IMG/VR virus record: IMGVR_UViG_3300020397_000464
Location: 1 to 28,837 of that record
Reading direction: 5' to 3' (one strand)
DNA length: 28,837 nt
Origin: a virus
Lineage: Duplodnaviria > Caudoviricetes
A model generated the notes under the pieces. The model was given only the letters and a program-made list of their open reading frames with translations, was not told where the DNA came from and searched no databases. Position 1 is the first letter of the stretch. Each line of letters opens with the position of its first letter. Below are positions 1,870-26,664 of this stretch, piece by piece. The translations under genes and the position numbers were made by a program.

Positions 1870-2538
1870 ATGAATATTAGTAATGAAACTCTAGACATAC
1901 TTAGAAATTTTTCAAGTATAAACTCTGGTATTACAGTTAAGGCTGGTAATGAATTGGTAACTGTTTCAGCGATGAAGAATATTTTCGCTAAAGCAGTCGT
2001 AGACGAAAGCTTCGAGAAAGACCATTCAATCTATGACCTATCTGAATATCTAGGTGCTGTATCTTTGTTTGATAGACCAAACTTTGATTTCAACGCCGAG
2101 AAAGTAACAGTATCAGAGGGCGATAATAGTGTAACTTATTATTACGCTGACCCACAAATGGTAATCTCCCCTACAAAAGAGATAACAATGCCTGAACCTG
2201 AGGTATCTTTTGACTTAGATAAAGATGTCTTAGATTCTTTATTGAAAGCTTCTTCTGTTTTATCCTTACCTGATATGGTATTATCAAGTGATGGTCAATC
2301 AGTTGTATTAACAGTAAAAGACAAAAAGAACTCAACTTCAAATGTCTTTAGTAAAACAGTAGCTCAAGGTAATGGGTCAACTTTCGAAATGTTTTTAAGA
2401 ATGGAAAACATGAAAATGATTCCTGGTGATTATACAGTTTTTGTATCATCAAAAGGTATCGCTCATTTTACAAACAGAAATGTAGCAGTTGAATACTTTA
2501 TAGCTTTAGAGCCAGATTCAACTTATAATGCTGTTTAA
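1870..2538 (+). CDS. 45: Sliding clamp (T4 gp45)
   Basis: N-terminus MNISNETLDILRNFSSINSGI, motif IYDLSEYL, 222 aa, located upstream of gp44. Confidence 0.95.
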   Translation: MNISNETLDILRNFSSINSGITVKAGNELVTVSAMKNIFAKAVVDESFEKDHSIYDLSEYLGAVSLFDRPNFDFNAEKVTVSEGDNSVTYYYADPQMVISPTKEITMPEPEVSFDLDKDVLDSLLKASSVLSLPDMVLSSDGQSVVLTVKDKKNSTSNVFSKTVAQGNGSTFEMFLRMENMKMIPGDYTVFVSSKGIAHFTNRNVAVEYFIALEPDSTYNAV

Positions 2539-3313
2539 TGTCCGAGAGATAAACAAAGATATAGCTATAAGTTTCATTGAGGAGCATCACTATACACCGA
2601 TGCTCCCAAAACTTACTAAACATTGGTTAGGTGGTTTTGTAGAAGGTGAACTAGTAGCTGTACTTACTCTTGGTTGGGGTACACAACCCAAACAAACAAT
2701 CAAAAAATTATTTCCACATCTAGATACAAAAGATTATTTTGAGATTGGTAAAATGTGCTTAACAGATGAAATGCCTAAAAATAGTGAGACACAATTTTTA
2801 AAAATGGTAAAAAAATGGATTCAAGAAAATACAGATATTGATTTACTCTATACTATGGCTGATGGTATTATGGGTAAAGCTGGGTATGTGTATCAGGCTT
2901 TCAACTTTTTTTATGGTGGAAAATTTAGAACAGCTGTTTATAGAGATACAATAACAGGAGAAAAAATACACCCACGAACAGCGAGAAAGTTATGTGAAGA
3001 GAACGCAATCTTTCTACAAAAAGAACGAGTTCATTGGTTGACTCCTGATTATATGAAAACTAAAAACTTAGAGAGAATAGATGGCTTGATGTTCAGATAT
3101 ATGTTACCAATGAACAAGAAAGCCAAGAAACATTTTAAGAAGTCTACAGTTGACTGGACTTTAAATTATCCAAAACACAAAGACATAGAGTTTTGGAAAC
3201 AAATAGAACTAGGTAAATACGAGAAGATGGCAGATTGGCCTGTATTTACTTTTGACAATATGAAATATAATAAAAAGATGTCAGGTGGTAGACTTGACGA
3301 ATTTATGACTTGA
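2528..3313 (+). CDS. Mom-like GNAT-fold putative DNA base-modification protein
   Basis: HHY, EIGKMCL..MPKNSETQFL and LYTMADG..GKAGYVYQAFNFFYGG resemble Mu Mom-family motifs. Confidence 0.65.
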   Translation: MLFNVREINKDIAISFIEEHHYTPMLPKLTKHWLGGFVEGELVAVLTLGWGTQPKQTIKKLFPHLDTKDYFEIGKMCLTDEMPKNSETQFLKMVKKWIQENTDIDLLYTMADGIMGKAGYVYQAFNFFYGGKFRTAVYRDTITGEKIHPRTARKLCEENAIFLQKERVHWLTPDYMKTKNLERIDGLMFRYMLPMNKKAKKHFKKSTVDWTLNYPKHKDIEFWKQIELGKYEKMADWPVFTFDNMKYNKKMSGGRLDEFMT

Positions 3314-3323
3314 GGATAAGATC
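3294..3323 (+). promoter_or_regulatory. Sigma70-type promoter with GATC overlapping -10
   Basis: TTGACG-N17-TAAGAT(C), with gp44 ATG 6 nt downstream. Confidence 0.7.
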
Positions 3324-3328
3324 TAATT

Positions 3329-4267
3329 ATGAGTGAAGAATTTTTATGGGTGGAGAAATATAGACCTAAAACTATTTCAGAGTGTATCTTACCTGATACT
3401 ATCAAAAATACCTTTCTTGATTTTGTAAAGAACAAAGAAATACCTAATTTATTATTATGTGGTACGGCTGGTGTTGGTAAAACTACAGTAGCTAGGGCTT
3501 TATGTAATGACTTTCAAGCTGACTATATTTTAATTAATGGTTCAGAAGAAAGAAATATTGACACACTAAGAGTTAAGATAAAGAACTTTGCTTCTACTGT
3601 ATCTTTATCTGGTGGTCCAAAGATAGTCATACTTGATGAAGCTGATTATCTAAATGCACAATCAACTCAACCAGCGTTGAGAGGTTTCATAGAAGAGTTT
3701 TCTAAAAACTGTAGATTCATATTTACTTGTAATTATAAAAACAGAATTATACCACCTCTACATTCAAGATGTAGTGTCATAGACTTTACTATTCAGAATG
3801 ACCAAAAGCCTATGATAGCTAATATGATATTTCAAAGAATACTTTTGATTCTAGGTTGGGAAAATATTAAATCAAATGACAAAGTTGTAGCTGAACTAAT
3901 TAATAAGTTCTTTCCTGATTTCAGAAGAGTTCTAAACGAACTACAAAAATATTCAGCGAGTGGTAGTATTGATTCAGGCGTATTAGCCAATCTTGACGAC
4001 CAATCTCTAACAGAAATAATTGGTTATCTCAAGAACAAAGAATTTTCTAAAATGAGAAAATGGGTAGCTATGAATATTCATAATGACCCACAAGCGATAT
4101 ATAGAAAACTATATGATAGTTTTTTCAACCTATTAGAAAACAGGTCAGTACCACAATCAATAATTATATTAAGTGATTACTCTTATAAGTCTGCATTTGT
4201 AGCCGACCAAGAAGTAAATATGGTGGCTTGTCTAACTGAATTGATGATGGAAGCTGAGTTTAAATAA
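3329..4267 (+). CDS. 44: Clamp loader large subunit (T4 gp44)
   Basis: LWVEKYRPKTI, Walker A GTAGVGKT, Walker B ILDEAD and the SRC motif. Confidence 0.97.
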   Translation: MSEEFLWVEKYRPKTISECILPDTIKNTFLDFVKNKEIPNLLLCGTAGVGKTTVARALCNDFQADYILINGSEERNIDTLRVKIKNFASTVSLSGGPKIVILDEADYLNAQSTQPALRGFIEEFSKNCRFIFTCNYKNRIIPPLHSRCSVIDFTIQNDQKPMIANMIFQRILLILGWENIKSNDKVVAELINKFFPDFRRVLNELQKYSASGSIDSGVLANLDDQSLTEIIGYLKNKEFSKMRKWVAMNIHNDPQAIYRKLYDSFFNLLENRSVPQSIIILSDYSYKSAFVADQEVNMVACLTELMMEAEFK

Positions 4268-5544
4268 TGGAACCTTTTGTTAAAAAACAATATGATGAAT
4301 ATCAGGCGAATAGAACTGAGAAAACCATATTATCTAAAGATGAACTAAGAGATAGAATTATAAAAGATTTATCTCAAGTTTCAAAAATGGGTGTTGGTGA
4401 ATATACTCTCTATCAAAAATATCTAGAAATACATATGAGATATCCGACTCAAGATATCGGTACTTTATTTGGCGAAGAGAAACAATTAGTAAATGAATCT
4501 CATTTAAAATTAATTAATGAAACAAAAAATAACATATGGTTTCCAGAAGACCCTATGGATTTTGAGAAGTTAGAACCAGAACTAGTTTATACAGATAGTC
4601 TCAAAGATAAAAGGTCAGCTGGTACACTTACTGAAAAATGGAACTGTATTCGAACATTTACCTCTACAATGAAAAATAGTTCAAACATAGGCCGTAATAT
4701 GCATTACATAGTAAGAGATAAAGTATCAGGTAAATATCTTGGTGTTATTTGTATTACAGGTGATTTTATTGATTTAACACCTAGAGATAATTACATTGGT
4801 TGGGAAAGAGAATACAAAACGAATAGTGGTAAACTAAATCATTCATGTATCGGCTCTACAATAGTACCTTTACAACCTCTTGGTTTTAATTACACAGGTG
4901 GTAAACTACTCGCTTTACTTTGTCTATCAGATGATATTCAAAAACAATGGGAAGAAAACTATGGTAATAAACTTGTAAGTGTAACAACTACATCTTTATA
5001 TGGTAAATCAAAGACAGGTGGTTTATCTCAGTATGATAGACTCAAACATTGGAAGAAAATGGGTTACAGTAAAGGCTCTTTATCATATGAGTTAACAAAA
5101 GAAACAGAAAAAGAAATGTTGAATTACGCTGAAGAACATTTTAACGAAAAGTATTTTTTACTTTATGTTGCGAAGAGAGAGAATGGCCAAACTCTAAAAA
5201 GAGACCATAGAAATAGAATGAGACAAATGATGTATTCGAAACTTGATATACCAAAAGATATTCAAAAGTCGGACCATCAAAGAGGTATTTACTATTCACC
5301 ACTTTATGATAATACCTGTGAGTTTTTAAGAGGTGAGATAGAAGAAGATAGTTTAGTTAAGTCTTTTGATACATCTACAGAAGCACTAACTGAATTATGG
5401 AAAGAGAAATACGCGAGAAAAAGAATTACAAATTTAATTAATAATGATAGGATAAATTTAGACGAAACATTATTTTATGATGATGTTTGCTTTCAAACAT
5501 GGGATGAAACGAAGGCTAAATATCTAGGTGAGGTCGGAAGATGA
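4267..5544 (+). CDS. DUF4338/DruA-like GNAT-fold protein (paralog 1)
   Basis: GRNMHYIVRD..GKYLGVI, VPLQPLGFNYTGGKLLALLC, TTTSLYGK and SQYD motifs. Confidence 0.7.
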   Translation: MEPFVKKQYDEYQANRTEKTILSKDELRDRIIKDLSQVSKMGVGEYTLYQKYLEIHMRYPTQDIGTLFGEEKQLVNESHLKLINETKNNIWFPEDPMDFEKLEPELVYTDSLKDKRSAGTLTEKWNCIRTFTSTMKNSSNIGRNMHYIVRDKVSGKYLGVICITGDFIDLTPRDNYIGWEREYKTNSGKLNHSCIGSTIVPLQPLGFNYTGGKLLALLCLSDDIQKQWEENYGNKLVSVTTTSLYGKSKTGGLSQYDRLKHWKKMGYSKGSLSYELTKETEKEMLNYAEEHFNEKYFLLYVAKRENGQTLKRDHRNRMRQMMYSKLDIPKDIQKSDHQRGIYYSPLYDNTCEFLRGEIEEDSLVKSFDTSTEALTELWKEKYARKRITNLINNDRINLDETLFYDDVCFQTWDETKAKYLGEVGR

Positions 5545-6713
5545 GCGAAAAGAGTGGAAGTAATTGGTCAAAAGGACTAATACTTGATAAAAAAGATGCG
5601 ATATACGCAGCGAATAGATTTACAGAGTATTTCAAAAACTTTGAACATATAATTGATTATTTCAAAGAAGTAAAAAAAGAACGAATAGAAAAAATGCCAC
5701 AGCCAATGTTTGGTATGTCATGGGGTGATGATTTCTTTCAGAATTGGGATATGCATCCAGAAGATATGGATTTTGAATTAAGAGATGCTACTAGTGAAAC
5801 ATTTCATCATTATCTTGAGTTAGTAGCTTCTCACCCGAATGAAGCTTCAATACCTGGTAGACATATTAGATATATGTTATATGAAAAGAATACAAACACA
5901 ATAGCTGGTTTTATCAGACTAGGTTCTCCTGTTATGTCGATAAGACCTAGAAATCAGTATCTAGACGGTGTTGTTGGTATGAATGGTAATATATCTCTAT
6001 CAACTTTTAATAAACATAGTATCAATGGTTTTATAATAGTACCAGCCCAACCATTTGGTTTTAATTATCTAGGTGGTAAATTATTAGCTGGTCTTTGTTG
6101 TACGGCAGAAGTAAAAGAACATTTAGATTCTAAGTACGATATGAACACTTGCTTGTTCGAAACAACTTCACTCTACGGTTCGAGCAAGCAGTTGTCGCAG
6201 TATGATGGTATGAAACCATTTATACGATTCAAGGGACTCACCGACAGCAGTTTCTCTCCCAATATGCATGATGGTGTGTTCCTTGACTTTAACAAATGGT
6301 TTACAGAAAAGAATGATGGCGTAAGAATTGTAGACCCAACAGTATCAGGTAGAAAGATGAAAACTCAAATGAGAATGATTTCTATCATTAAACAATCACT
6401 AAAAGAACATGATGAACAAGAATATAAAAAGTTTGTAGAGTTTCATAAAGAATCAACTAATCTAAATGAACAAAAAAGATTCTTTATATCTACATATGGT
6501 TATGAAAATGTTCCACAGATAATCAGAGGTGAAGAGACAGAGTTAAGAAAAGCCCCTAACTTTGATAGATATACTCAACAAGGTATTCTAGATTGGTGGC
6601 GTCCAAAGGCGGCTAGAAGATATGAACAACTTAAAAAAGATGGTAGACTTAAAACTAGTCTTGAAATCTGGTCTGAAACTTTTGATATAGATATATTAAG
6701 AGAAGGCAAATGA
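5541..6713 (+). CDS. DUF4338/DruA-like GNAT-fold protein (paralog 2)
   Basis: PGRHIRYMLYE..IAGFIRLGSP, VPAQPFGFNYLGGKLLAGLC, ETTSLYG and SQYDG. Shares its core with the upstream ORF. Confidence 0.7.
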   Translation: MSEKSGSNWSKGLILDKKDAIYAANRFTEYFKNFEHIIDYFKEVKKERIEKMPQPMFGMSWGDDFFQNWDMHPEDMDFELRDATSETFHHYLELVASHPNEASIPGRHIRYMLYEKNTNTIAGFIRLGSPVMSIRPRNQYLDGVVGMNGNISLSTFNKHSINGFIIVPAQPFGFNYLGGKLLAGLCCTAEVKEHLDSKYDMNTCLFETTSLYGSSKQLSQYDGMKPFIRFKGLTDSSFSPNMHDGVFLDFNKWFTEKNDGVRIVDPTVSGRKMKTQMRMISIIKQSLKEHDEQEYKKFVEFHKESTNLNEQKRFFISTYGYENVPQIIRGEETELRKAPNFDRYTQQGILDWWRPKAARRYEQLKKDGRLKTSLEIWSETFDIDILREGK

Positions 6714-7090
6714 ACCCTTTTGAATTCGTAAATTCGATAACATTTAATAAGAATGATATACTAGAACAAGATGAACTCTTGGAGAAAGAATATGCCCCTT
6801 TCCTAGTCAATCGGAGTCTATCATATCATCAGGACTGTATACTTTTTGCTAATGAAGTGAATAGAAGATTCGATATGCCACACAAGCTTCAATACCACTA
6901 TTTACTAAATAGCATTAGAAAAAGAAAAAGGTTTGCTCAATGGAGTAAACCTGAAAAGATTGACGATTTGAAAGTTGTCATGGATTATTATCAAGTATCT
7001 CGCCAAAAGGGAGAAGAGTATTTAAATATTCTATCTAAAAAACAAATAGGGATATTAAAAAGAAAAATGAGTAAAGGTGGCATGAAATGA
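6710..7090 (+). CDS. 62: Clamp loader small subunit (T4 gp62)
   Basis: Y.PFLVNRSLSY..DCILFANEVN and QYHYLLNSIRKRKRF, located upstream of regA. Confidence 0.93.
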   Translation: MNPFEFVNSITFNKNDILEQDELLEKEYAPFLVNRSLSYHQDCILFANEVNRRFDMPHKLQYHYLLNSIRKRKRFAQWSKPEKIDDLKVVMDYYQVSRQKGEEYLNILSKKQIGILKRKMSKGGMK

Positions 7091-7485
7091 GTTATGACAT
7101 ACAGGATATGCTAGAGGTATCATTCAAAGAGAGTGATGACTTCTTAAAAATACGAGAAACATTAACACGAATCGGTGTGGCTTCAAGAAAAGATAGAACC
7201 CTTTATCAATCTTGTCACATCTTACATAAACGAGGTAAATATTATCTAGTTCACTTCAAAGAACTTTTTGCTTTAGATGGTAAAGAGCATTCTATGAATG
7301 AGAACGATATTGGTAGAAGAAACGCTATAGCTAGACTACTTGAAGAATGGGGTCTAATTAAAGTTGTAGATGAATCAAAGGTCATGAGTCCATGTGCACC
7401 AATGAGTCAGATTAAAGTTTTACCTCATAAAGAAAAGAACGAGTGGAACTTAGTCGCTAAATATAATATTGGCGTCACAAAATAA
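7087..7485 (+). CDS. regA: Translational repressor RegA
   Basis: DDFLKIRETLTRIGVASRKDRTLYQSCHILHKRGKYYLVHFKELF. Confidence 0.97.
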   Translation: MSYDIQDMLEVSFKESDDFLKIRETLTRIGVASRKDRTLYQSCHILHKRGKYYLVHFKELFALDGKEHSMNENDIGRRNAIARLLEEWGLIKVVDESKVMSPCAPMSQIKVLPHKEKNEWNLVAKYNIGVTK

Positions 7486-8550
7486 ATGAAAGCAAAAAGT
7501 TTTAAATCCTTTTTGAAAGAGGACTTTGAACCGTATAAGTTAGTTATACTAACTCATTCTGCTGCAGGTGTTAGAGATACCAAAAGTGAACCCGCAGAAT
7601 CTGGAACAGAACTTCTTAAAAAAGTAGGCAAACAAATAGGTATACAAGTTGAAACTGCAGACTTTGTTGGAGCCTATACGAAAAAAGAAGGTGATAAAAG
7701 ACTTTTATATTCTTTTGAGTTTGACGAAGACGGCGAAGTTCAATTACCTGCTTCAGACGATAGAGTTTTAAAATATCAAAAACCTATAGTATGTGACCCT
7801 AAGAATACAATCATAATGCCTAGAGGTCTAGGTACTCAAGGGTTTACAGCTTCAAGAGGCTGGCTAGATTTAGTAAAAGAATTTGAGTATGACGGATTCT
7901 TCATTGTAAATGATATTGAATCATATGATATTTGTACGAGTAAGTATTTAACTTATGTAAATCTAAAACGATTCGGATTTAGAACTCCTAAAACTGTACC
8001 GATAGAACATTCAGAAGCTGCAGAGGCAGCATTCAAAAGACTCAAGACAGACTTTCCAATTATTTTAAAATCATCTACAGGAACTCAAACAGGTGTAGGT
8101 GTGGTAATTATCGAAAGTATGAGAACATTACGAGCAGTTGTTCAGATGTTATTACTTTACGAAAAATATCTACCACTAATCTTACAAGAATATATAAAAA
8201 CAGATTATGATATGAGAGTTGTTGTATGTAATGGCAAAGTTGTAGGTGGTATTAGAAGAGAGGTTATGTCAGATGATATAAGAAGTAATGTATCATTAGG
8301 GGCAGTAGCAGAACAAATAGAACTTACAGAATTAGAAAAACAAACAGCGATAGATATATCAGATAAATTAGGTCTACATCTAGCAGGTGTAGATTTCATA
8401 CCATCAGAAGACAGAGAAAAAATACCACCATATTGTCTAGAAGTTAACGCAAACTTAGGACTTATGGGTGTCGAAAAAAGAATCGAAGGTAGTCCTACCA
8501 AAAAAATTCTGCAAGAGCTTGGTGACCGAGACTCTTGGAATACTAAATAA
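7486..8550 (+). CDS. RimK-like ATP-grasp ligase
   Basis: FPIILKSSTGTQTGVGV, ILQEYI, DMRVVV, RSNVSLG, AGVDFI and LEVNAN. Confidence 0.85.
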   Translation: MKAKSFKSFLKEDFEPYKLVILTHSAAGVRDTKSEPAESGTELLKKVGKQIGIQVETADFVGAYTKKEGDKRLLYSFEFDEDGEVQLPASDDRVLKYQKPIVCDPKNTIIMPRGLGTQGFTASRGWLDLVKEFEYDGFFIVNDIESYDICTSKYLTYVNLKRFGFRTPKTVPIEHSEAAEAAFKRLKTDFPIILKSSTGTQTGVGVVIIESMRTLRAVVQMLLLYEKYLPLILQEYIKTDYDMRVVVCNGKVVGGIRREVMSDDIRSNVSLGAVAEQIELTELEKQTAIDISDKLGLHLAGVDFIPSEDREKIPPYCLEVNANLGLMGVEKRIEGSPTKKILQELGDRDSWNTK

Positions 8551-8576: not shown

Positions 8577-8801
8577 ATGTTAAGTATAGACTTTATTAAA
8601 GAATGGTGCATTAATAAGATTGAATACCTCAAGAGTCAAGCTCTGAAAGAGAGAACTTCTTGGGATGGTATAGTAATCATTGCTGTATCAGGTTCAATCA
8701 TTCTTTTTGGCGGTTTAATCAAACTAATCGCCTGGCTAGCTTTAGCCTACGGTATTTACACACTTGTAAAAGAAGAGGGATTTAATCCTCTAGACCATTA
8801 A
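8577..8801 (+). CDS. Small membrane protein
   Basis: AGGAG SD, a late-promoter-like CTAAATA at 8543-8549, and ERTSWDG followed by a hydrophobic hairpin. Confidence 0.75.
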   Translation: MLSIDFIKEWCINKIEYLKSQALKERTSWDGIVIIAVSGSIILFGGLIKLIAWLALAYGIYTLVKEEGFNPLDH

Positions 8802-9166
8802 TGATAGAAGTAACAGATGAGGCAATTACTAAACTTCTTCAAAAACAAAAAGAAGAACGATTTAGTCATATACGGCTTGGAATCAAGGGGGGTGGTTGCG
8901 CTGGTTTTGAGTATGTTTTTGCTGTTGATGATATTGGAGATGATGATATAGTTTTAGACTATGGTAAATGGAGTTTTATCATCAATAAAATATCTGTTCC
9001 TTATATTAATGGTATGACTTTAGACTATGTTAAAGAAGGTCTAAATGAGTTTTTCAAGTTTATAAATCCAAAAGAACAATCTTCATGTGGATGTGGTGTC
9101 AGTATCAACTTTGATTTGAATGCTGTTGAGGCTGACGAAAAACAAATATTCGCAGTGGAGGTATGA
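8801..9166 (+). CDS. iscA: A-type Fe-S cluster carrier (IscA/HesB family)
   Basis: RLGIKGGGCAGFEY and NPKEQSSCGCGVS. Confidence 0.92.
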   Translation: MIEVTDEAITKLLQKQKEERFSHIRLGIKGGGCAGFEYVFAVDDIGDDDIVLDYGKWSFIINKISVPYINGMTLDYVKEGLNEFFKFINPKEQSSCGCGVSINFDLNAVEADEKQIFAVEV

Positions 9167-9268: not shown

Positions 9269-10345
9269 ATGAGGAAACTTTTTTTATCAATTACACTTTT
9301 ATCATTAGCGGGTATAATGGCTGCAGATGATGGTGCGACTGGAACTTGTGACGCAGGTACTCAGTATTGTGAGGCGTTGAATACTACCAACAATACAACC
9401 ACAAATAATACCAACACCAATACCAATACCAACACAAATACCAACACCAATACCAATACCAATACCAACACGAATACCAATAATAATACTAGCGTTAATA
9501 CTAATACTAACACGAATACTAGCACAAATAACAATACCAATGTTAATACCAATAATAATACTTCTACTAGCACTAACACTAATAATAATAACAATGTGAA
9601 TGTTAATACGAATAATAATACTTCTTCTAGTACGGTGAATAGTACAAGTAATAATACTAGTAATGTAACTTCGAATAATACCAACACGAATAATAATAAC
9701 AATAATACCACTTCGAATAATACCAATACGAATAATAATTATAGTGAAAGTAATTCTAATTCGAATGTAAATACAAACAATACAAATACGAATAATACTA
9801 CTTCGGACAATACAAACAGGAACATAAATGAGTCCAAGTCTGAACAAGTAATTACTCAAAACATCAATACAAAAGCTCCACCAGCTTCAGCGATAGCACC
9901 AAGTATCATGAGTTATTCGCAAGATTTATGTACTACTGGTGTTTCAGGAGCATTCCAAGGACAGGTCTTTGGTTTCTCAGCTGGTAAGACAATCAAAGAC
10001 GAGAATTGTGAAAGATTAAAACTTTCTAAGTATCTTTACGATATGGGTATGAAAGTCGCCTCTGTGGCTTTACTTTGTCAAGATGAAAGAGTCTTCTCAG
10101 CTATGCGAATGGCAGGAACTCCATGTCCTTACAAAGGTGAAATCGGACAGAAAGCTTCATATCAATGGGCTAAAAATCCACACGATATGCCAACTTACGA
10201 AAAAGATAAAGAAAAATATATCAAACAATGTAAGAGAGAAAAAGTTGAAAGTGGGCCTAAGAAAGGTGCTAAAAAATCTACTAGAACTTGTAGAAAAGAA
10301 TTTGAAGATTCATTCTATAAAATCAGAAACGATATAGAGGGCTAA
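9269..10345 (+). CDS. Exported Asn/Thr-rich protein with Cys-containing C-terminal domain
   Basis: Signal-peptide-like MRKLFLSITLLSLAGIMA, about 145 aa of N/T low complexity, and a C-terminal PPASAIAPS..CTTGVSG..CERLKL..LCQD..GTPCP domain. Confidence 0.8.
   Translation: MRKLFLSITLLSLAGIMAADDGATGTCDAGTQYCEALNTTNNTTTNNTNTNTNTNTNTNTNTNTNTNTNTNNNTSVNTNTNTNTSTNNNTNVNTNNNTSTSTNTNNNNNVNVNTNNNTSSSTVNSTSNNTSNVTSNNTNTNNNNNNTTSNNTNTNNNYSESNSNSNVNTNNTNTNNTTSDNTNRNINESKSEQVITQNINTKAPPASAIAPSIMSYSQDLCTTGVSGAFQGQVFGFSAGKTIKDENCERLKLSKYLYDMGMKVASVALLCQDERVFSAMRMAGTPCPYKGEIGQKASYQWAKNPHDMPTYEKDKEKYIKQCKREKVESGPKKGAKKSTRTCRKEFEDSFYKIRNDIEG
9380..9816 (+). repeat. Coding low-complexity (AAY ACN)n repeat encoding (Asn-Thr)n
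   Basis: Tandem ACCAAT/ACCAAC hexamers at about 9410-9480, degenerating downstream. Confidence 0.9.
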
Positions 10346-16784: not shown

Positions 16785-19283
16785 ATGCACTTTTATACAA
16801 ATGTTTATAGATATAGAGATTACATTTTAGCTAGAGGTTACAGAAACGGTAAACCTTTTACAAACAGATTAAAGTATCAACCAACTTTTTATGTTTCTAC
16901 TAATAAACCTTCGGCTTTCAAAAGTATTCATGGTCATAACCTAGAACCTAAAAAGTTCCCAAGTATGTCAGCGTCAAGAGCTTGGCGTGAAAAGTATGAC
17001 AATATTGGTGGCTTTGAAGTTCATGGTCTTGATAGATTTGAATACACATATATTAATGAAAACTTCACTAGTGATATTGAGTTTGATTTTAATCAGATTA
17101 AAATATTAAATTTAGATATCGAGTGTGAGTGTGAAGAAGGTTTTCCAGAACCTTTGAAAGCTGAAGAGAGAGTAAATGCTATTAGTATGAAACTCTTTGG
17201 TCATGATACTATCTATGTTTTTGGCATAGATAATCATGACTATCAGACAAATGACCCGAATGTAAAATATTACAAATGTCAGCATGAGAAACATCTATTG
17301 TTGACTTTTCTAGATGTTTGGGAACAGATTTGTCCTGATGTGGTGACTGGTTGGAATGTTCTAAACTTTGATATAGCTTATCTAGTTAATAGAATGAAAA
17401 AACTCTTTGATGAAGAGACTGTAACAAGATTATCTCCACATAGAATTATTACATCTAAAAACTGGAAACATATGGGTCAACAAGATATGGTTGACTACAA
17501 CTTAGCTGGTATCGAGGTACTAGACTATCAAAAAATATTCAGATATTTTACATACACAAACCAAGAAAGTTATAGACTAGACCATATCGCTGAAGTTACG
17601 ATTGGTCAGAAAAAACTAGACTACTCAGAGTTCGGTGCGATGCATCTTTTCTACAAACACGATTATAATAAATTCTTAGATTATAATGTGCGTGATGTAG
17701 TTCTAGTTGAAAAGATAGATGATAAATTAAAACTTATGAATCTATTATTTAATCTAGCTTATAGTGCTAAATGTAACTATTCAGATACTTTTGGCCAAGT
17801 TAAGTTTTGGGACTTATTGATATATAACTTCTTGAGAAAAAAGAATGTTGTTCCACCACCAAAAGTAAATACAGGTGACGCACAAAGTTTCGCTGGGGCT
17901 TATGTCAAAGAACCTCAAGTTGGTTTACATGAATGGGTTATGTCTTTTGATTTAAATTCATTATATCCACACTTAATCATGCAGTATAATATTTCACCTG
18001 AAACACATCATAAAGAAAAGTTTGATGGTGACATAACTGTAAATAAATTATTAAAAGAAGAAGTAGATATCAATCTACAAAATCTAACTGTAACACCGAA
18101 TGGTTCTATGTTTGATACCACAAGTCAAGGTTATCTACCTGAACTTCTAGAAGAACTATATGACGAAAGAGTTTACTTTAAAAATAAAATGATTGAGTCA
18201 CAAAAACAATTTGAGAAAGTTACAGACCCAAAAGAAAAGAAAAGACTAGAATATGAGATTACAGCCAATCATAATAATCAACTTGTTAGAAAAATTTGTT
18301 TGAACTCAGCTTATGGGGCGATAGGTAATCAATGGTTTAGATATTACAATAGAGATATGGCTGAAGCTATCACTACAGCTGGTCAATTAAGTATCAAGTG
18401 GGTTGAGAAAGCTGTTAATGAGTTTCTTAATAAAGTCTTAAAGACTGATAACAAAGATTATGTAATCGCGATTGATACTGATTCTATCTATGTTACTTTT
18501 GAAGAATTAATTAAACAAGTAAATCCAAAAGGCGACAAGATTGATTTTCTAAATAGAACTGCGAAAGAGGCGATAGAGCCTGTAATCGAAGAATGTTATG
18601 AGAAGTTGGCTAAATATGTTTTTGCTTATAAAAACAAAATGAGAATGGGTAGAGAAGTCATCGCCGACAAAGGTATCTGGACTGCTAAGAAAAGATATAT
18701 TCTTAATGTATTCGATAGTGAAGGTGTTCGATACAATGAACCTCACCTTAAAACTATGGGTATCGAAACTGTAAAATCTTCAACACCTCAATGGTGTAGA
18801 GGTAGACTAAAAGAAGCTTTGAAAGTTGTAATGAAAGGTAATGAAACAGATGTTCAAAACTTTATTCAAGAAACAAAAGAAGATTTCAATAAACTATCGG
18901 CTGAAGATATCGCTTTCCCTAGAGGTGTTCAGAAAGTTACCAGATACAAAGACAATGCTAAGATTTATAAAAAGTCTACACCTATTCATGTTAGAGGTTC
19001 ATTATTGTATAATCATTATTTAAATAAATATAACATAGAGAAAAAATATCCTGTCATTCAGAATGGTGAGAAAATTAAGTTTTGTTATTTAAAAGTACCA
19101 AATATTATGAATGAAAATGTCATATCTTTTGTAAATGCTTTACCAAAAGAATTTAAGTTAGAGAACTACATAGATTATGATACACAATTTAACAAAGCTT
19201 TTCTGGAACCCTTAGAACTAATTATTGAGAAGATTGGTTGGCATACAGAACCACAAAGTAATCTGGAGTTATTCTTTGGTTGA
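16785..19283 (+). CDS. 43: Family B DNA polymerase (T4 gp43)
   Basis: Exonuclease LDIE, SFDLNSLYP, KICLNSAYG, IDTDS and KKRY, with C-terminal clamp-binding-like SNLELFFG. Confidence 0.98.
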   Translation: MHFYTNVYRYRDYILARGYRNGKPFTNRLKYQPTFYVSTNKPSAFKSIHGHNLEPKKFPSMSASRAWREKYDNIGGFEVHGLDRFEYTYINENFTSDIEFDFNQIKILNLDIECECEEGFPEPLKAEERVNAISMKLFGHDTIYVFGIDNHDYQTNDPNVKYYKCQHEKHLLLTFLDVWEQICPDVVTGWNVLNFDIAYLVNRMKKLFDEETVTRLSPHRIITSKNWKHMGQQDMVDYNLAGIEVLDYQKIFRYFTYTNQESYRLDHIAEVTIGQKKLDYSEFGAMHLFYKHDYNKFLDYNVRDVVLVEKIDDKLKLMNLLFNLAYSAKCNYSDTFGQVKFWDLLIYNFLRKKNVVPPPKVNTGDAQSFAGAYVKEPQVGLHEWVMSFDLNSLYPHLIMQYNISPETHHKEKFDGDITVNKLLKEEVDINLQNLTVTPNGSMFDTTSQGYLPELLEELYDERVYFKNKMIESQKQFEKVTDPKEKKRLEYEITANHNNQLVRKICLNSAYGAIGNQWFRYYNRDMAEAITTAGQLSIKWVEKAVNEFLNKVLKTDNKDYVIAIDTDSIYVTFEELIKQVNPKGDKIDFLNRTAKEAIEPVIEECYEKLAKYVFAYKNKMRMGREVIADKGIWTAKKRYILNVFDSEGVRYNEPHLKTMGIETVKSSTPQWCRGRLKEALKVVMKGNETDVQNFIQETKEDFNKLSAEDIAFPRGVQKVTRYKDNAKIYKKSTPIHVRGSLLYNHYLNKYNIEKKYPVIQNGEKIKFCYLKVPNIMNENVISFVNALPKEFKLENYIDYDTQFNKAFLEPLELIIEKIGWHTEPQSNLELFFG

Positions 19284-23475: not shown

Positions 23476-25590
23476 ATGAAGACATTTAGTCACTATTTGC
23501 AGAATCTACCAGAAGAGAATAAGTTAGATAAACTTAAACATGGTTTGCCTTTAACAAAGAAAAGAATCAAAGTTTTTTCTAGACCATATCCAGAATTTGA
23601 ACACTTTGACTTTGAAACATATGAAGGTATGCCACCACCTAAGAATTCTTCACATCAAGCTAGAAATGAGATTAATTTTCTGATATCATTACAGCCTATG
23701 CGAGATAAAGAAGCTGAAGAAATGATATTTCATGATAAAAAGATAGTTGAAGCTTTTGAAGAATATTTAGCCATTTATGGCCTAGAAGACCGAGTAGATA
23801 TAGAAAGAATTAGAAATATTCAAGAGCAGTCAGATGTTATCACATTACAATTAAAAAGATTTTATGATAGACCTAGACCAGCTAAACTAGCTAAGGCTCT
23901 AGGTATAGATTTACCACTTTTCCCATTACAGACAGCAGAAACACCATCATATCCATCAGGTCACGCATTACAAGGTAGATTATTAGCTAGACTTATTTCA
24001 GATGAATTACCAATCGAACATAGAAAAAATATATTAGATATCGGAAAAAGAATAGGTATCGGTAGACAAATAGCTGGTGTGCATTATCCTACAGACACGG
24101 AGTTTGGTGTAAAAGTAGCTGATGAACTTTACCGTTTAGTCAATACTGGTATGGAACCAACACTTAAACTAGAACAAATAACTGAAATGACTAAGAAGGC
24201 TATGCAAAAACAAATAGCAGATTTAGATAAAGGTTTAGAAGTTGTATCAAATCCTGATAGAATAGGTAACTCAGGTAAATTATCAGATGGTGAATTCTCT
24301 AGAAAGTTACAAGGTATGGGTGCTAAAGAAGTTGAAATGACTCCACCAAGAACAGGTAAAAATAAGAGTAGTCAATTCAATATGTTTTCTTTTGATTTTG
24401 ATGGTAAAGATTATGACATAGTTTTAGCTGGTGAAGTTAAAGGAAGAGGTACAAAAGGCACAGAAGATAATGAAGAGTCTTTCTTACTAGTCTTATCAGC
24501 ATTACAATCAGGAGCTAGTGACACCGATTTACTTGATAAAATGAAAGATAAAAATGTTTATGGGAAAGTTGGTATCACTGCAGAGAGAGCTCAAAATTTA
24601 GTTGACTATTTAGAAAATAAAACAGACTGGTTGATATCTCATAAAGCACAATGTAAAGCTCTAATGAAAGTTATAGGTAAAAAACAACCTAAAAAATATG
24701 TTAAAGATGATAGTAAACTTGATATCAATAGACAAGCCGTAAAACTATTTAAATCAGACATGGGTATGAATATGTCTAGGTCATTAGATAAATGGAATCC
24801 AGCAGATGTATGGTTATACTATGACAGCTCTGTTCCAGAGCACTCTACAATAGCAGAGTTAAACAAATATCTATATGACTCTATAAAGGGTAAAAAAGGT
24901 ATCATAGGTATATCTCTCAAAAAAGGTATAGGTAAACTAGACTATAAAAATTATTATCCACCAGAAGAAAAAGAACTTAGTAAAATAGATTTAAAATTAT
25001 CAGCAGTAAGCTCTCTATCAGGAACAATTAAATTTGTTGGTGACCCTGCTATCGAGGCACAAAGTTTAGCTTTCAGAATATTTCAAGCGAAAGATACTGA
25101 TAGAATCAGAGGTGAAGCAGAGAAAAAAGGTGCAGAAGCAGTTCAAGGAAAAGTTCAATTAGCTATGTTAGATAAATTTACTGGTAGAAAGTTTGACTCA
25201 AATATTAAGAAAGCTGGTGGGCCTGATATAATAGAACTAAAGGGTAAAGAGTATGTACTAACTAGAAATGGTAAGAAACAATTCGCTCAAGCTTCAAAAT
25301 CTTGGAAGAAAATATCAAGAAGAAGAAATCTAGTATTCGCCAGAGGTGCTACAGCTAAACAATATACAGACGCTTTTAAAAATGAAAATAATTTTCTAAA
25401 ATGGTTGAATGACCAAGATATGTTAGAGAATGCAGCAAAATCATGGGCAAATTCTAAATTTCAAGTCTTGAAATTATTTGAACTAATTGATACCATGGGA
25501 GAAGACGGCGAGAAAAAATTAGCTATGAATCTATTAAAATACGCTAGCTCAGAATCAGATTTCTCAGCAGCACACTTAAAACTAGAATAA
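23476..25590 (+). CDS. PAP2/acid-phosphatase domain fused to a putative PD-(D/E)xK-like domain
   Basis: PAP2 motifs KRFYDRPRP, SYPSGH and RQIAGVHYPTD. C-terminal half carries DKWNPADVWL...GISLKK. Confidence 0.75.
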   Translation: MKTFSHYLQNLPEENKLDKLKHGLPLTKKRIKVFSRPYPEFEHFDFETYEGMPPPKNSSHQARNEINFLISLQPMRDKEAEEMIFHDKKIVEAFEEYLAIYGLEDRVDIERIRNIQEQSDVITLQLKRFYDRPRPAKLAKALGIDLPLFPLQTAETPSYPSGHALQGRLLARLISDELPIEHRKNILDIGKRIGIGRQIAGVHYPTDTEFGVKVADELYRLVNTGMEPTLKLEQITEMTKKAMQKQIADLDKGLEVVSNPDRIGNSGKLSDGEFSRKLQGMGAKEVEMTPPRTGKNKSSQFNMFSFDFDGKDYDIVLAGEVKGRGTKGTEDNEESFLLVLSALQSGASDTDLLDKMKDKNVYGKVGITAERAQNLVDYLENKTDWLISHKAQCKALMKVIGKKQPKKYVKDDSKLDINRQAVKLFKSDMGMNMSRSLDKWNPADVWLYYDSSVPEHSTIAELNKYLYDSIKGKKGIIGISLKKGIGKLDYKNYYPPEEKELSKIDLKLSAVSSLSGTIKFVGDPAIEAQSLAFRIFQAKDTDRIRGEAEKKGAEAVQGKVQLAMLDKFTGRKFDSNIKKAGGPDIIELKGKEYVLTRNGKKQFAQASKSWKKISRRRNLVFARGATAKQYTDAFKNENNFLKWLNDQDMLENAAKSWANSKFQVLKLFELIDTMGEDGEKKLAMNLLKYASSESDFSAAHLKLE

Positions 25591-25593
25591 GAT

Positions 25594-26664
25594 ATGGAAA
25601 TACAAATAACAAATACACCTAACAAAGTTAGGCTTTTCGAGGGTGATTATGTCAAAGATTTAAATCCAGTTGATGTAGTCGAAATTTTTAAAACACCTCT
25701 TACAGGTTCTTATAATTGGGACTATACTGTTCAAGATAATCGAATCAAAAAATTATATGAACTAGGAAAAGAACTTAATTGGAATGTAGAATCAGATTTA
25801 GACTGGTCTCCTGAGTTCGAAGGCATGGGTGATGAAGAGTTTGACTTTGAAGATAATCAATGGTCAAATCATCCAGTTTACAAAGAGATGCCTAGATGGA
25901 AGAGAAAAGAGTTCTTTCATGATTTAAGTTCTTGGAGTGTCAGTCAGTTTTTACATGGAGAACAAGGTGCTTTATTAGTAGCGAGTCAACTCGCAAGTTG
26001 TGCACCTACATTTAACGCCAAACTATATGCAGCTTCTCAAACTTTTGATGAAGCTCGTCATGTAGAGGCATTCAATAAATACTTACAAACAAGAATTAAG
26101 AAAAGTTGGCCGATAGGGGCAGCTTTGAAAGGACTACTTGATAAGATATTGACAGACCCAAGGTGGGATTTAAAATTTATAGGAATGCAAGTAGTTATTG
26201 AGGGTTTAGCTTTGGCAGCATTCAACGCAGCTAAAGACGGAACAAATGACCCTGTTTTCAAAAGAATGTTAGAGTTAATTATTCGTGATGAAGCTCGTCA
26301 TGTAACTTTTGGTATAAACTATCTAACAGAGTTCGTACAGACTTTGAGTGAAGAAGATAGAAGAGATAGAGCTAAGTTTGCATTAGAGGCTTGTACTGTA
26401 AGTCGTCATAGATTAAAAGCTTATGATGTTTGGGAAAAGTATGGTATGAATATAGAAGAGACAGAAGAATATCAAAAAGAAAATATTTTACAAACACAAT
26501 TTCAAGATGTATTATTTAGTAGAATCATGCCAAACTTAAAGAAAATAGGTTTACTTACAGAAGATTTAATACCTGAATACGAAAAGTTAGGAGTTCTGGC
26601 TTACGCAGATGGTGATTCAGATTACGAAACAAGTTGGGAGGAGTTATCAAAACCACTTAATTAA
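25594..26664 (+). CDS. Ferritin-like diiron protein (AurF/N-oxygenase-like)
   Basis: Diiron ligand pattern HGEQGAL, DEARH, IEGLA and a second DEARH. Confidence 0.82.
   Translation: MEIQITNTPNKVRLFEGDYVKDLNPVDVVEIFKTPLTGSYNWDYTVQDNRIKKLYELGKELNWNVESDLDWSPEFEGMGDEEFDFEDNQWSNHPVYKEMPRWKRKEFFHDLSSWSVSQFLHGEQGALLVASQLASCAPTFNAKLYAASQTFDEARHVEAFNKYLQTRIKKSWPIGAALKGLLDKILTDPRWDLKFIGMQVVIEGLALAAFNAAKDGTNDPVFKRMLELIIRDEARHVTFGINYLTEFVQTLSEEDRRDRAKFALEACTVSRHRLKAYDVWEKYGMNIEETEEYQKENILQTQFQDVLFSRIMPNLKKIGLLTEDLIPEYEKLGVLAYADGDSDYETSWEELSKPLN

What the first reader, a model, noticed from the sequence alone, without database searches (positions are those of the whole stretch)
2528..6713. Three Mom/DruA-like GNAT genes interleaved in the clamp/clamp-loader operon: candidate replisome-coupled DNA modification system
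Seen: the normally contiguous 45-44-62 block reads 45-[Mom-like]-44-[DUF4338-like A]-[DUF4338-like B]-62, and the inserted genes overlap their upstream neighbours. A and B are divergent paralogs sharing QP.GFNY.GGKLLA.LC and TTSLYG..SQYD. Established: Mu Mom is a GNAT-fold enzyme that hypermodifies adenine to block restriction, and DUF4338 corresponds to DruA of Druantia defence, whose biochemistry is unknown. Inference: with no Druantia helicase in this window, these genes may form an undescribed base-modification (anti-restriction) module acting at the fork, possibly as an A/B heterodimer.
Basis: partly seen in the sequence, partly recalled or inferred. Interest (0 to 1): 0.85.

Follow-up and report, generated by a model that had tools for sequence, protein, structure and literature searches.

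The report
Clamp-tailed Mom plus two DruA enzymes
An uncultured marine T4-like phage carries three acyltransferase-type genes among its DNA-replication genes: a Mom-family enzyme that ends in the same short peptide as the phage DNA polymerase, and so likely rides the sliding clamp and likely marks newly copied DNA, and two DruA-family enzymes that are predicted to share that fold and likely modify DNA separately; related phages carry the three in other places and combinations, so they are probably not one machine.

The parts
1870..2538 (+). gp45 sliding clamp
   Evidence: PF09116 E 1.3e-14, phrog_223 E 1.6e-73
2528..3313 (+). X: Mom-family GNAT, 261 aa, of a subfamily with K at Mu R111 and I at Mu R151
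   Evidence: PF25680 E 2.9e-47; 8bv8 E 1.8e-13; alignment with Mu Mom
3293..3313 (+). C-terminal LDEFMT of X: clamp-binding-type peptide (L-x-x-F-F/L/M)
   Evidence: same pattern as the window's gp43 end; 25 of 41 Mom-like ends vs 19 of 1844 background; weak complex support
3329..4267 (+). gp44 clamp loader large subunit
   Evidence: PF21328, phrog_168 E 1e-122
4267..5544 (+). A: DruA/DUF4338-family protein, 425 aa, predicted GNAT core with large insertions; likely acquired by horizontal transfer
5541..6713 (+). B: DruA/DUF4338-family paralog, 390 aa (phrog_19197), predicted GNAT core
6710..7090 (+). gp62 clamp loader small subunit
   Evidence: PF16790 E 1.7e-15
7087..7485 (+). RegA translational repressor
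   Evidence: PF01818 E 3e-45
16785..19283 (+). gp43 DNA polymerase, ending in LELFFG; the only other window protein with the tail pattern
   Evidence: sequence; motif scan of window ORFs

Best explanation
These are three separate accessory acyltransferase (GNAT) genes that have collected in the open junctions of this phage's clamp operon: X is a Mom-family enzyme that likely docks on the gp45 clamp through its C-terminal peptide and likely acylates a base in newly copied DNA, while A and B are DruA-family paralogs predicted to have the same fold that likely modify DNA bases on their own, without that tail. For X the most likely chemistry is Mom-like transfer of an activated aminoacyl group to adenine after replication, with donor or product possibly unlike Mu's because two essential arginines are changed (inferred). 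A and B are old, non-redundant paralogs that many T4-like phages keep together but apart, so they probably have different specificities (inferred). The purpose is probably protection from host nucleases (inferred). Shown: layout, family membership, tail enrichment, independent distribution. Predicted: folds of A and B, clamp binding. Inferred: substrate, donor, purpose.
For: X: PF25680 and 8bv8 hits; it keeps Mu H58, Y59, D149, Y159 and has T at S124 (residues named in PMC13219725 section 13). Tail: strict pattern in 25 of 41 Mom-like, 41 of 54 gp43, 19 of 1844 other and 0 of 79 A/B distinct C-termini. The two non-T4 orthologs at 49-50% identity stop just before the tail, as does Mu Mom. T4 gp55 and gp33 bind gp45 through a C-terminal LDFL motif (PMC9690074, passage). 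Complex of three gp45 with X 222-261: score 0.58, best control 0.05, contacts agree at least 68%, partner pLDDT at least 41; the mark was reached by 116 of 157 solved and 2 of 215 mismatched pairs, but at 0.60 or under by only 18 of the 157 and by both mismatches, and like clamp-peptide complexes are solved, so this is weak. A and B: GNAT folds with 8bv8 ranked first of 48,161 chains, tied within 1 Z with other GNATs; they mostly stay near replication or recombination genes; distant relatives are fused to ParB_N (7 of 45 scanned), GIY-YIG (2) or a UDG-type domain (1). Independence. Variants: 24 synonymous to 4 non-synonymous over X, A and B among the 34 listed sites that I classified.
Against: No activity, product or binding was measured. 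X has I at Mu R151 (R151A is dead) and K at R111 (R111K strongly reduced), also K at W181 and D at W48. The tail pattern was drawn by eye from these same families, so only the background rate is a fair test; 9 of 41 Mom-like ends lack even the broad pattern. Mu Mom works on dsDNA after replication with no clamp mentioned. For A and B, Mom's lead over protein and small-molecule acetyltransferases is under 1 Z, Foldseek gave no hit at E 0.001 and listed no Mom row for A, and no sequence link to Mom was found. The window still avoids GATC (14 vs 184 expected) and ACGT (0 vs 50), which a broadly protected genome need not do.
Confidence: 0.5

Rival explanations
1. X modifies DNA as above, but A and B acylate proteins, tRNA or a small molecule during host takeover rather than DNA.
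For: Protein and small-molecule N-acetyltransferases tie with Mom in the fold searches. PMC10853773 (passages) calls DUF4338 a GNAT and suggests that such fused domains could target proteins. PMC7824862 (passages) cites a phage GNAT that acetylates host RNA polymerase. A and B have no clamp tail (0 of 79).
Against: Mom ranks first for both models and aligns over more residues (169-171) than most rows; fusions are to DNA-related domains; the genes stay beside gp41, gp43, gp44/62 and gp46.
Confidence: 0.25
2. One reading: the three genes are one replisome-coupled modification system, with A and B as a heterodimer.
For: Overlapping, co-oriented genes in one operon. A and B co-occur in 17 of 32 records searched whole, and 26 of 27 A loci with enough upstream DNA carry B 7.3-9.7 kb away (related phages, not independent).
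Against: A adjoins B in 1 of 60 distinct A sequences, the window's own. Mom accompanies A+B in 1 of those 17 records; none of 7 complete genomes has all three. B stands alone in cyanophages, A alone in Mosig. Window A is 86% identical to a clade whose gp41 is 63% identical, and the trees disagree, so A joined recently.
Confidence: 0.12
3. X is a Mom-type modifier or an inactive Mom relic that does not use the clamp; the tail is incidental.
For: Loss of R151 and R111; weak complex score with low peptide pLDDT; some members lack the tail.
Against: Tail rate 25 of 41 against 19 of 1844, its absence in non-T4 orthologs, many invariant active-site columns, and 5 synonymous to 1 non-synonymous variants.
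Confidence: 0.1
4. The genes are selfish mobile inserts such as homing endonucleases.
For: They change position, and the same junctions hold GIY-YIG and PD-(D/E)XK genes in other phages; 2 of 45 distant relatives scanned are fused to GIY-YIG.
Against: No nuclease domain in X, A or B; GNAT folds; long retention of A and B at fixed sites within clades.
Confidence: 0.03

Closest known systems
Phage Mu Mom (PF25680; PDB 8bv8; PMC13219725): Gly-tRNA(Gly)-dependent GNAT making 6-NcmdA in dsDNA
   Same: X is in the Pfam family, about 27% identical, and keeps H58, Y59, D149, Y159 and a hydroxyl residue at S124. Models of A and B have 8bv8 as nominal best structural match.
   Different: X has K, I, K and D at R111, R151, W181 and W48, and a C-terminal extension ending in a clamp-binding-type peptide that Mu Mom lacks; it lies in an early replication operon. 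A and B show no sequence link to Mom.
DruA (DUF4338, PF14236) of Druantia type I
   Same: A and B pass the Pfam cut-off and match PADLOC DruA models (E 1.4e-20, 6.3e-9).
   Different: Phage-encoded, two paralogs, no druB-E gene recognised in the 28.8 kb fragment. I found no biochemistry for DruA in the papers searched.
T4 gp45-binding C-terminal LDFL motif of gp55 and gp33 (PMC9690074); T4 alpha-glucosyltransferase binding gp45 (recalled, no call)
   Same: Short C-terminal L-x-x-F-F/L peptide shared by X, gp43 and some gp55 in these phages; a DNA-modifying enzyme on the clamp has that recalled precedent.
   Different: Not described for a Mom-family enzyme in the papers searched; binding here is only predicted.
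Published phage DruA-like genes: six Synechococcus phages in the Phold paper (10.1101/2025.08.05.668817); S-SCSM2R ORF152 called 'methylcarbamoylase mom' (PMC12801897)
   Same: These are B orthologs (S-PRM1 45%, S-SCSM2R 47%), often just before gp62.
   Different: Single genes, noted by structure prediction only, no experiment in the passages read; the A/B paralog pair is not discussed there.

Membership tests
Mom family (X) | Pfam PF25680 over cut-off and homology to Mu Mom | tested here: met
   161 bits vs 27.1; 8bv8 E 1.8e-13
Mom family (X) | Active-site H58, Y59, S124, D149, Y159 | tested here: met
   H21, Y22, T88 (S in most relatives), D112, Y122
Mom family (X) | Essential R111 and R151 of Mu Mom | tested here: not met
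   K75 and I114; the whole subfamily has K and a hydrophobic residue there; mutant effects from PMC13219725 section 13. X is therefore a family member but not shown to be a Mu-type 6-NcmdA maker.
Mom family (X) | Gly-tRNA(Gly) donor, N6-adenine product | not testable with these tools
   needs LC-MS and in vitro assay
Mom family (A, B) | Sequence homology to Mom | tested here: not met
   no PF25680 hit; profile-profile probability under 1%
GNAT superfamily (A, B) | GNAT alpha/beta core | tested here: met
GNAT superfamily (A, B) | Acyl donor (acyl-CoA or aminoacyl-tRNA) and acceptor | not tested
   the QPxGFNYxGGKLL motif lies between strand 193-201 and helix 211-218 of A, where GNAT motif A would lie; inferred from topology, no superposition examined
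DruA / DUF4338 | PF14236 over cut-off | tested here: met
   77.3 and 43.9 bits vs 27
Druantia type I system | druE helicase gene and druB-D beside druA | tested here: not met
   neighbours in the window and in the loci mapped are phage replication genes; PADLOC was run on X, A and B only, and the record is a 28.8 kb fragment
gp45 clamp-binding proteins | C-terminal LDFL-like peptide | tested here: met
   X ends LDEFMT; 25 of 41 vs 19 of 1844. A and B do not have it (0 of 79).
gp45 clamp-binding proteins | Binding to gp45 | tested here: inconclusive
   weak support, 0.58 vs best control 0.05
Obligate three-gene or A/B module | Conserved adjacency and co-occurrence | tested here: not met
   A next to B in 1 of 60; all three in 0 of 7 complete genomes

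The most novel reading that the evidence does not exclude
Aquatic T4-like phages run a widespread, chemically undescribed layer of DNA base acylation: a clamp-riding Mom subfamily with a rebuilt active site that makes a base other than Mu's 6-NcmdA on nascent DNA, and two ancient DruA-family enzymes that install further modifications, which would also show that DruA is the self-marking modifier of Druantia type I.
Probability: 0.3. Interest if true: 0.85.

Novelty: new variant of a known kind. Interest (0 to 1): 0.55.

Why it matters
The A and B families are large (4039 and 4877 proteins at 90% clustering, overlapping sets) and present in cultured phages of Pelagibacter and Synechococcus, yet no activity is known for any DruA-family protein in the papers searched. 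If they acylate DNA bases, abundant ocean phages carry unrecognised modified bases and DruA of Druantia type I gains a function. A clamp-tethered Mom would show how a post-replicative modifier is aimed at phage rather than host DNA. Cultured phages form a natural panel (A+B, A only, B only, Mom-type only) that makes the question testable by nucleoside LC-MS without genetics.

Full report
Observation. The window is a 28.8 kb fragment of a T4-like phage, found in marine metagenomes. The order is gp45 (1870-2538), X (2528-3313), gp44 (3329-4267), A (4267-5544), B (5541-6713), gp62, regA, with overlaps of 11, 1, 4 and 4 nt at gp45/X, gp44/A, A/B and B/gp62. X is Mom family (PF25680 E 2.9e-47; PDB 8bv8 E 1.8e-13). 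A and B are DruA family (PF14236 E 1.5e-21 and 2.2e-11), 28% identical. I laid 4 of 24 listed runs; contigs of two DNA runs from different studies bridge every junction without indels. Of 34 listed variant sites classified (more were not shown or lay outside these genes), X had 5 synonymous to 1 non-synonymous, A 12 to 1 and B 7 to 2.

The interleaving is not special. In 79 loci chosen only by gp44 similarity, 28 of 74 gp45-gp44 and 48 of 76 gp44-gp62 junctions hold 150 bp or more of insert. Of 16 larger inserts scanned, 3 were 2OG-Fe(II) oxygenases, 1 a PD-(D/E)XK and 1 a GIY-YIG nuclease, 1 a weak DUF6445 and 10 unknown. Cultured phages put speD, purS or 2OG genes there. DruA-like genes filled 1 of 76 and Mom none, so this combination is rare, but the slots are general insertion sites.

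The three genes travel separately. In 74 of 76 loci found with A, gp41 lies within three genes upstream of A; B sits 7.3-9.7 kb away in 26 of the 27 with enough DNA; Mom lies in 3 of 49 that cover gp43 to uvsX; A touches B in 1 of 60 distinct sequences, the window's. Other lineages put A after gp46, or alone between gp44 and gp62, and B after gp41, gp43, hsp20 or before gp62. Of 32 records searched whole (chosen for holding one of the genes; 25 are fragments), 17 have two DruA-family genes, 8 one and 7 none; Mom joins A+B in 1 of the 17. The 7 complete genomes read: A+B (G005, HTVC008M), A only (Mosig), B only (S-SM2, S-SCSM2R), B plus a distant Mom about 70 kb away (S-SSM7), Mom-type only (Melnitz). 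In GenBank phages, 30 of 31 matching records hold a full-length B type and 3 a full-length A type (some records are duplicates). Window A is 85-86% identical to a group whose gp41 is 63% and gp43 52% identical. A nests inside that group in its tree (95/92), while the gp41 tree leaves the window outside it (98/97) (no one-clade test). A therefore probably arrived recently and landed next to B. The A+B co-occurrence at a distance in several lineages is real and suggests non-redundant roles, but related phages inflate the count.

X carries a clamp-binding-type tail. I saw it in the family alignment before consulting earlier notes. With the strict pattern L-x-x-F-(F/L/M) in the last 5-9 residues of complete ORFs, 25 of 41 distinct Mom-like ends, 41 of 54 gp43 ends, 19 of 1844 others and 0 of 79 A/B ends match; the broad pattern gives 32, 41, 34 and 0. 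The 19 include 3 of 7 gp55 ends. Among A-type representatives 2 of 150 match. In the window only X and gp43 have it. A review states that T4 gp55 and gp33 bind gp45 through a C-terminal LDFL motif (PMC9690074, passages). The pattern was drawn from these families, so only the background is a fair test. A gp45 trimer folded with X 222-261 scored 0.58 against a best control of 0.05, with at least 68% contact agreement and partner pLDDT of at least 41. The mark was reached by 116 of 157 solved and 2 of 215 mismatched pairs, but at 0.60 or under by only 18 of the 157 and both mismatches, and like complexes are solved, so this is weak support.

X is not a copy of Mu Mom. Mu Mom moves glycine from Gly-tRNA(Gly) to adenine N6 in dsDNA after replication (PMC13219725: abstract, sections 13 and 14, passages). 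X keeps H58, Y59, D149, Y159 and has T at S124, but has K at R111, I at R151, K at W181 and D at W48; the K, hydrophobic and K changes run through the subfamily. In Mu, R151A is dead and R111K, W181A and W48A are strongly reduced. Strong conservation and purifying selection argue for an active enzyme with a rebuilt site, so donor or product may differ (inference).

Mechanism, most likely (0.5). X is loaded on gp45 behind the fork through its tail and acylates a base, probably adenine, in new phage DNA; A and B modify DNA independently with different specificities; the purpose is nuclease evasion. Shown: layout, families, tail enrichment, independent distribution. Predicted: folds, clamp binding. 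Inferred: substrate, donor, purpose. Against broad protection, the window still avoids GATC (14 vs 184 expected, both strands) and ACGT (0 vs 50). Rivals: A and B act on protein or RNA (0.25); one coupled module with an A/B heterodimer (0.12); X not clamp-bound or inactive (0.10); selfish inserts (0.03).

What is known. DUF4338 is called a GNAT in PMC10853773 (passages). DruA-like proteins in six Synechococcus phages are noted in the Phold preprint (passages). The B ortholog of S-SCSM2R is annotated as mom from predicted structure (PMC12801897, passages). Mom domains in jumbo phages are noted in PMC7824862 (passages). Passages of three Druantia papers gave no DruA biochemistry. A clamp tail on Mom was not found in searches or in the main text of PMC13219725; supplements were not read, and most subscription journals are not in the library. 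The T4 alpha-glucosyltransferase/gp45 precedent is recalled, not checked. Earlier notes of this scan describe the same gene types and the clamp tail on other genomes; they are not independent support.

Verdict. Real genes, partly right reading: a new variant of a known kind. The notable points are the clamp-tailed Mom subfamily with changed catalytic residues and a large untested DruA-type GNAT family for which cultured phages give a ready test panel. The interleaving and the trio are particular to this lineage. Interest 0.55.

Noticed in passing
window 1-28837: GATC is strongly depleted (14 vs 184 expected, both strands) and ACGT is absent (0 vs 50); GTAC and GCGC are also low.
   Followed up: no
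L011:4588-5394; L170:10804-11250; L237:181-705: Other DNA-acting genes in related loci end in the same clamp-type peptide: a TAGT glycosyltransferase family (3 of 4 ends), a weakly matched PD-(D/E)XK nuclease next to Mom, and a MUG113/T5orf172 protein.
   Followed up: partly
L027:5132-6139 (HTVC008M gp104 family): An unknown family of about 330 aa lies within three genes of B in 34 of 121 B occurrences; no Pfam or PHROG hit.
   Followed up: partly
L229:1384-2508; L238:5018-5641: DNA methyltransferases (N6/N4, MT-A70) recur near Mom-like and B genes, 13 of 86 Mom occurrences for the first family.
   Followed up: no
P0303, P0307, P0317, P0318, P0320, P0335, P0351, P0260, P0384, P0389: DruA-family proteins fused to ParB_N, a UDG-type domain or GIY-YIG nucleases.
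   Followed up: no
L189, L190, L200; S-SSM7 216832-217392: Tandem or second, more distant Mom paralogs in some phages.
   Followed up: no
L245:2986-3756: The Mom-like open frame of Edwardsiella phage ET-ABTNL-9 is not annotated in its GenBank record.
   Followed up: no
L215, L221, L223, L224, L227: The window's nearest relatives by gp41 (75-76%) carry a Mom only 50% identical to X, placed after gp41, where the window has a peroxiredoxin-like gene.
   Followed up: partly
window 25594-26664, 23476-25590, 7486-8550, 8801-9166: Accessory genes: AurF-like di-iron protein, a 704 aa protein with a PAP2 domain, RimK-type ligase, IscA-type Fe-S protein.
   Followed up: no
window 9269-10345, 9196, 12748: Asn/Thr-rich repeat protein with a signal-peptide-like start, preceded by a T4 late promoter match TATAAATA; a second match precedes the 148 aa gene (2 matches is below chance count).
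   Followed up: no
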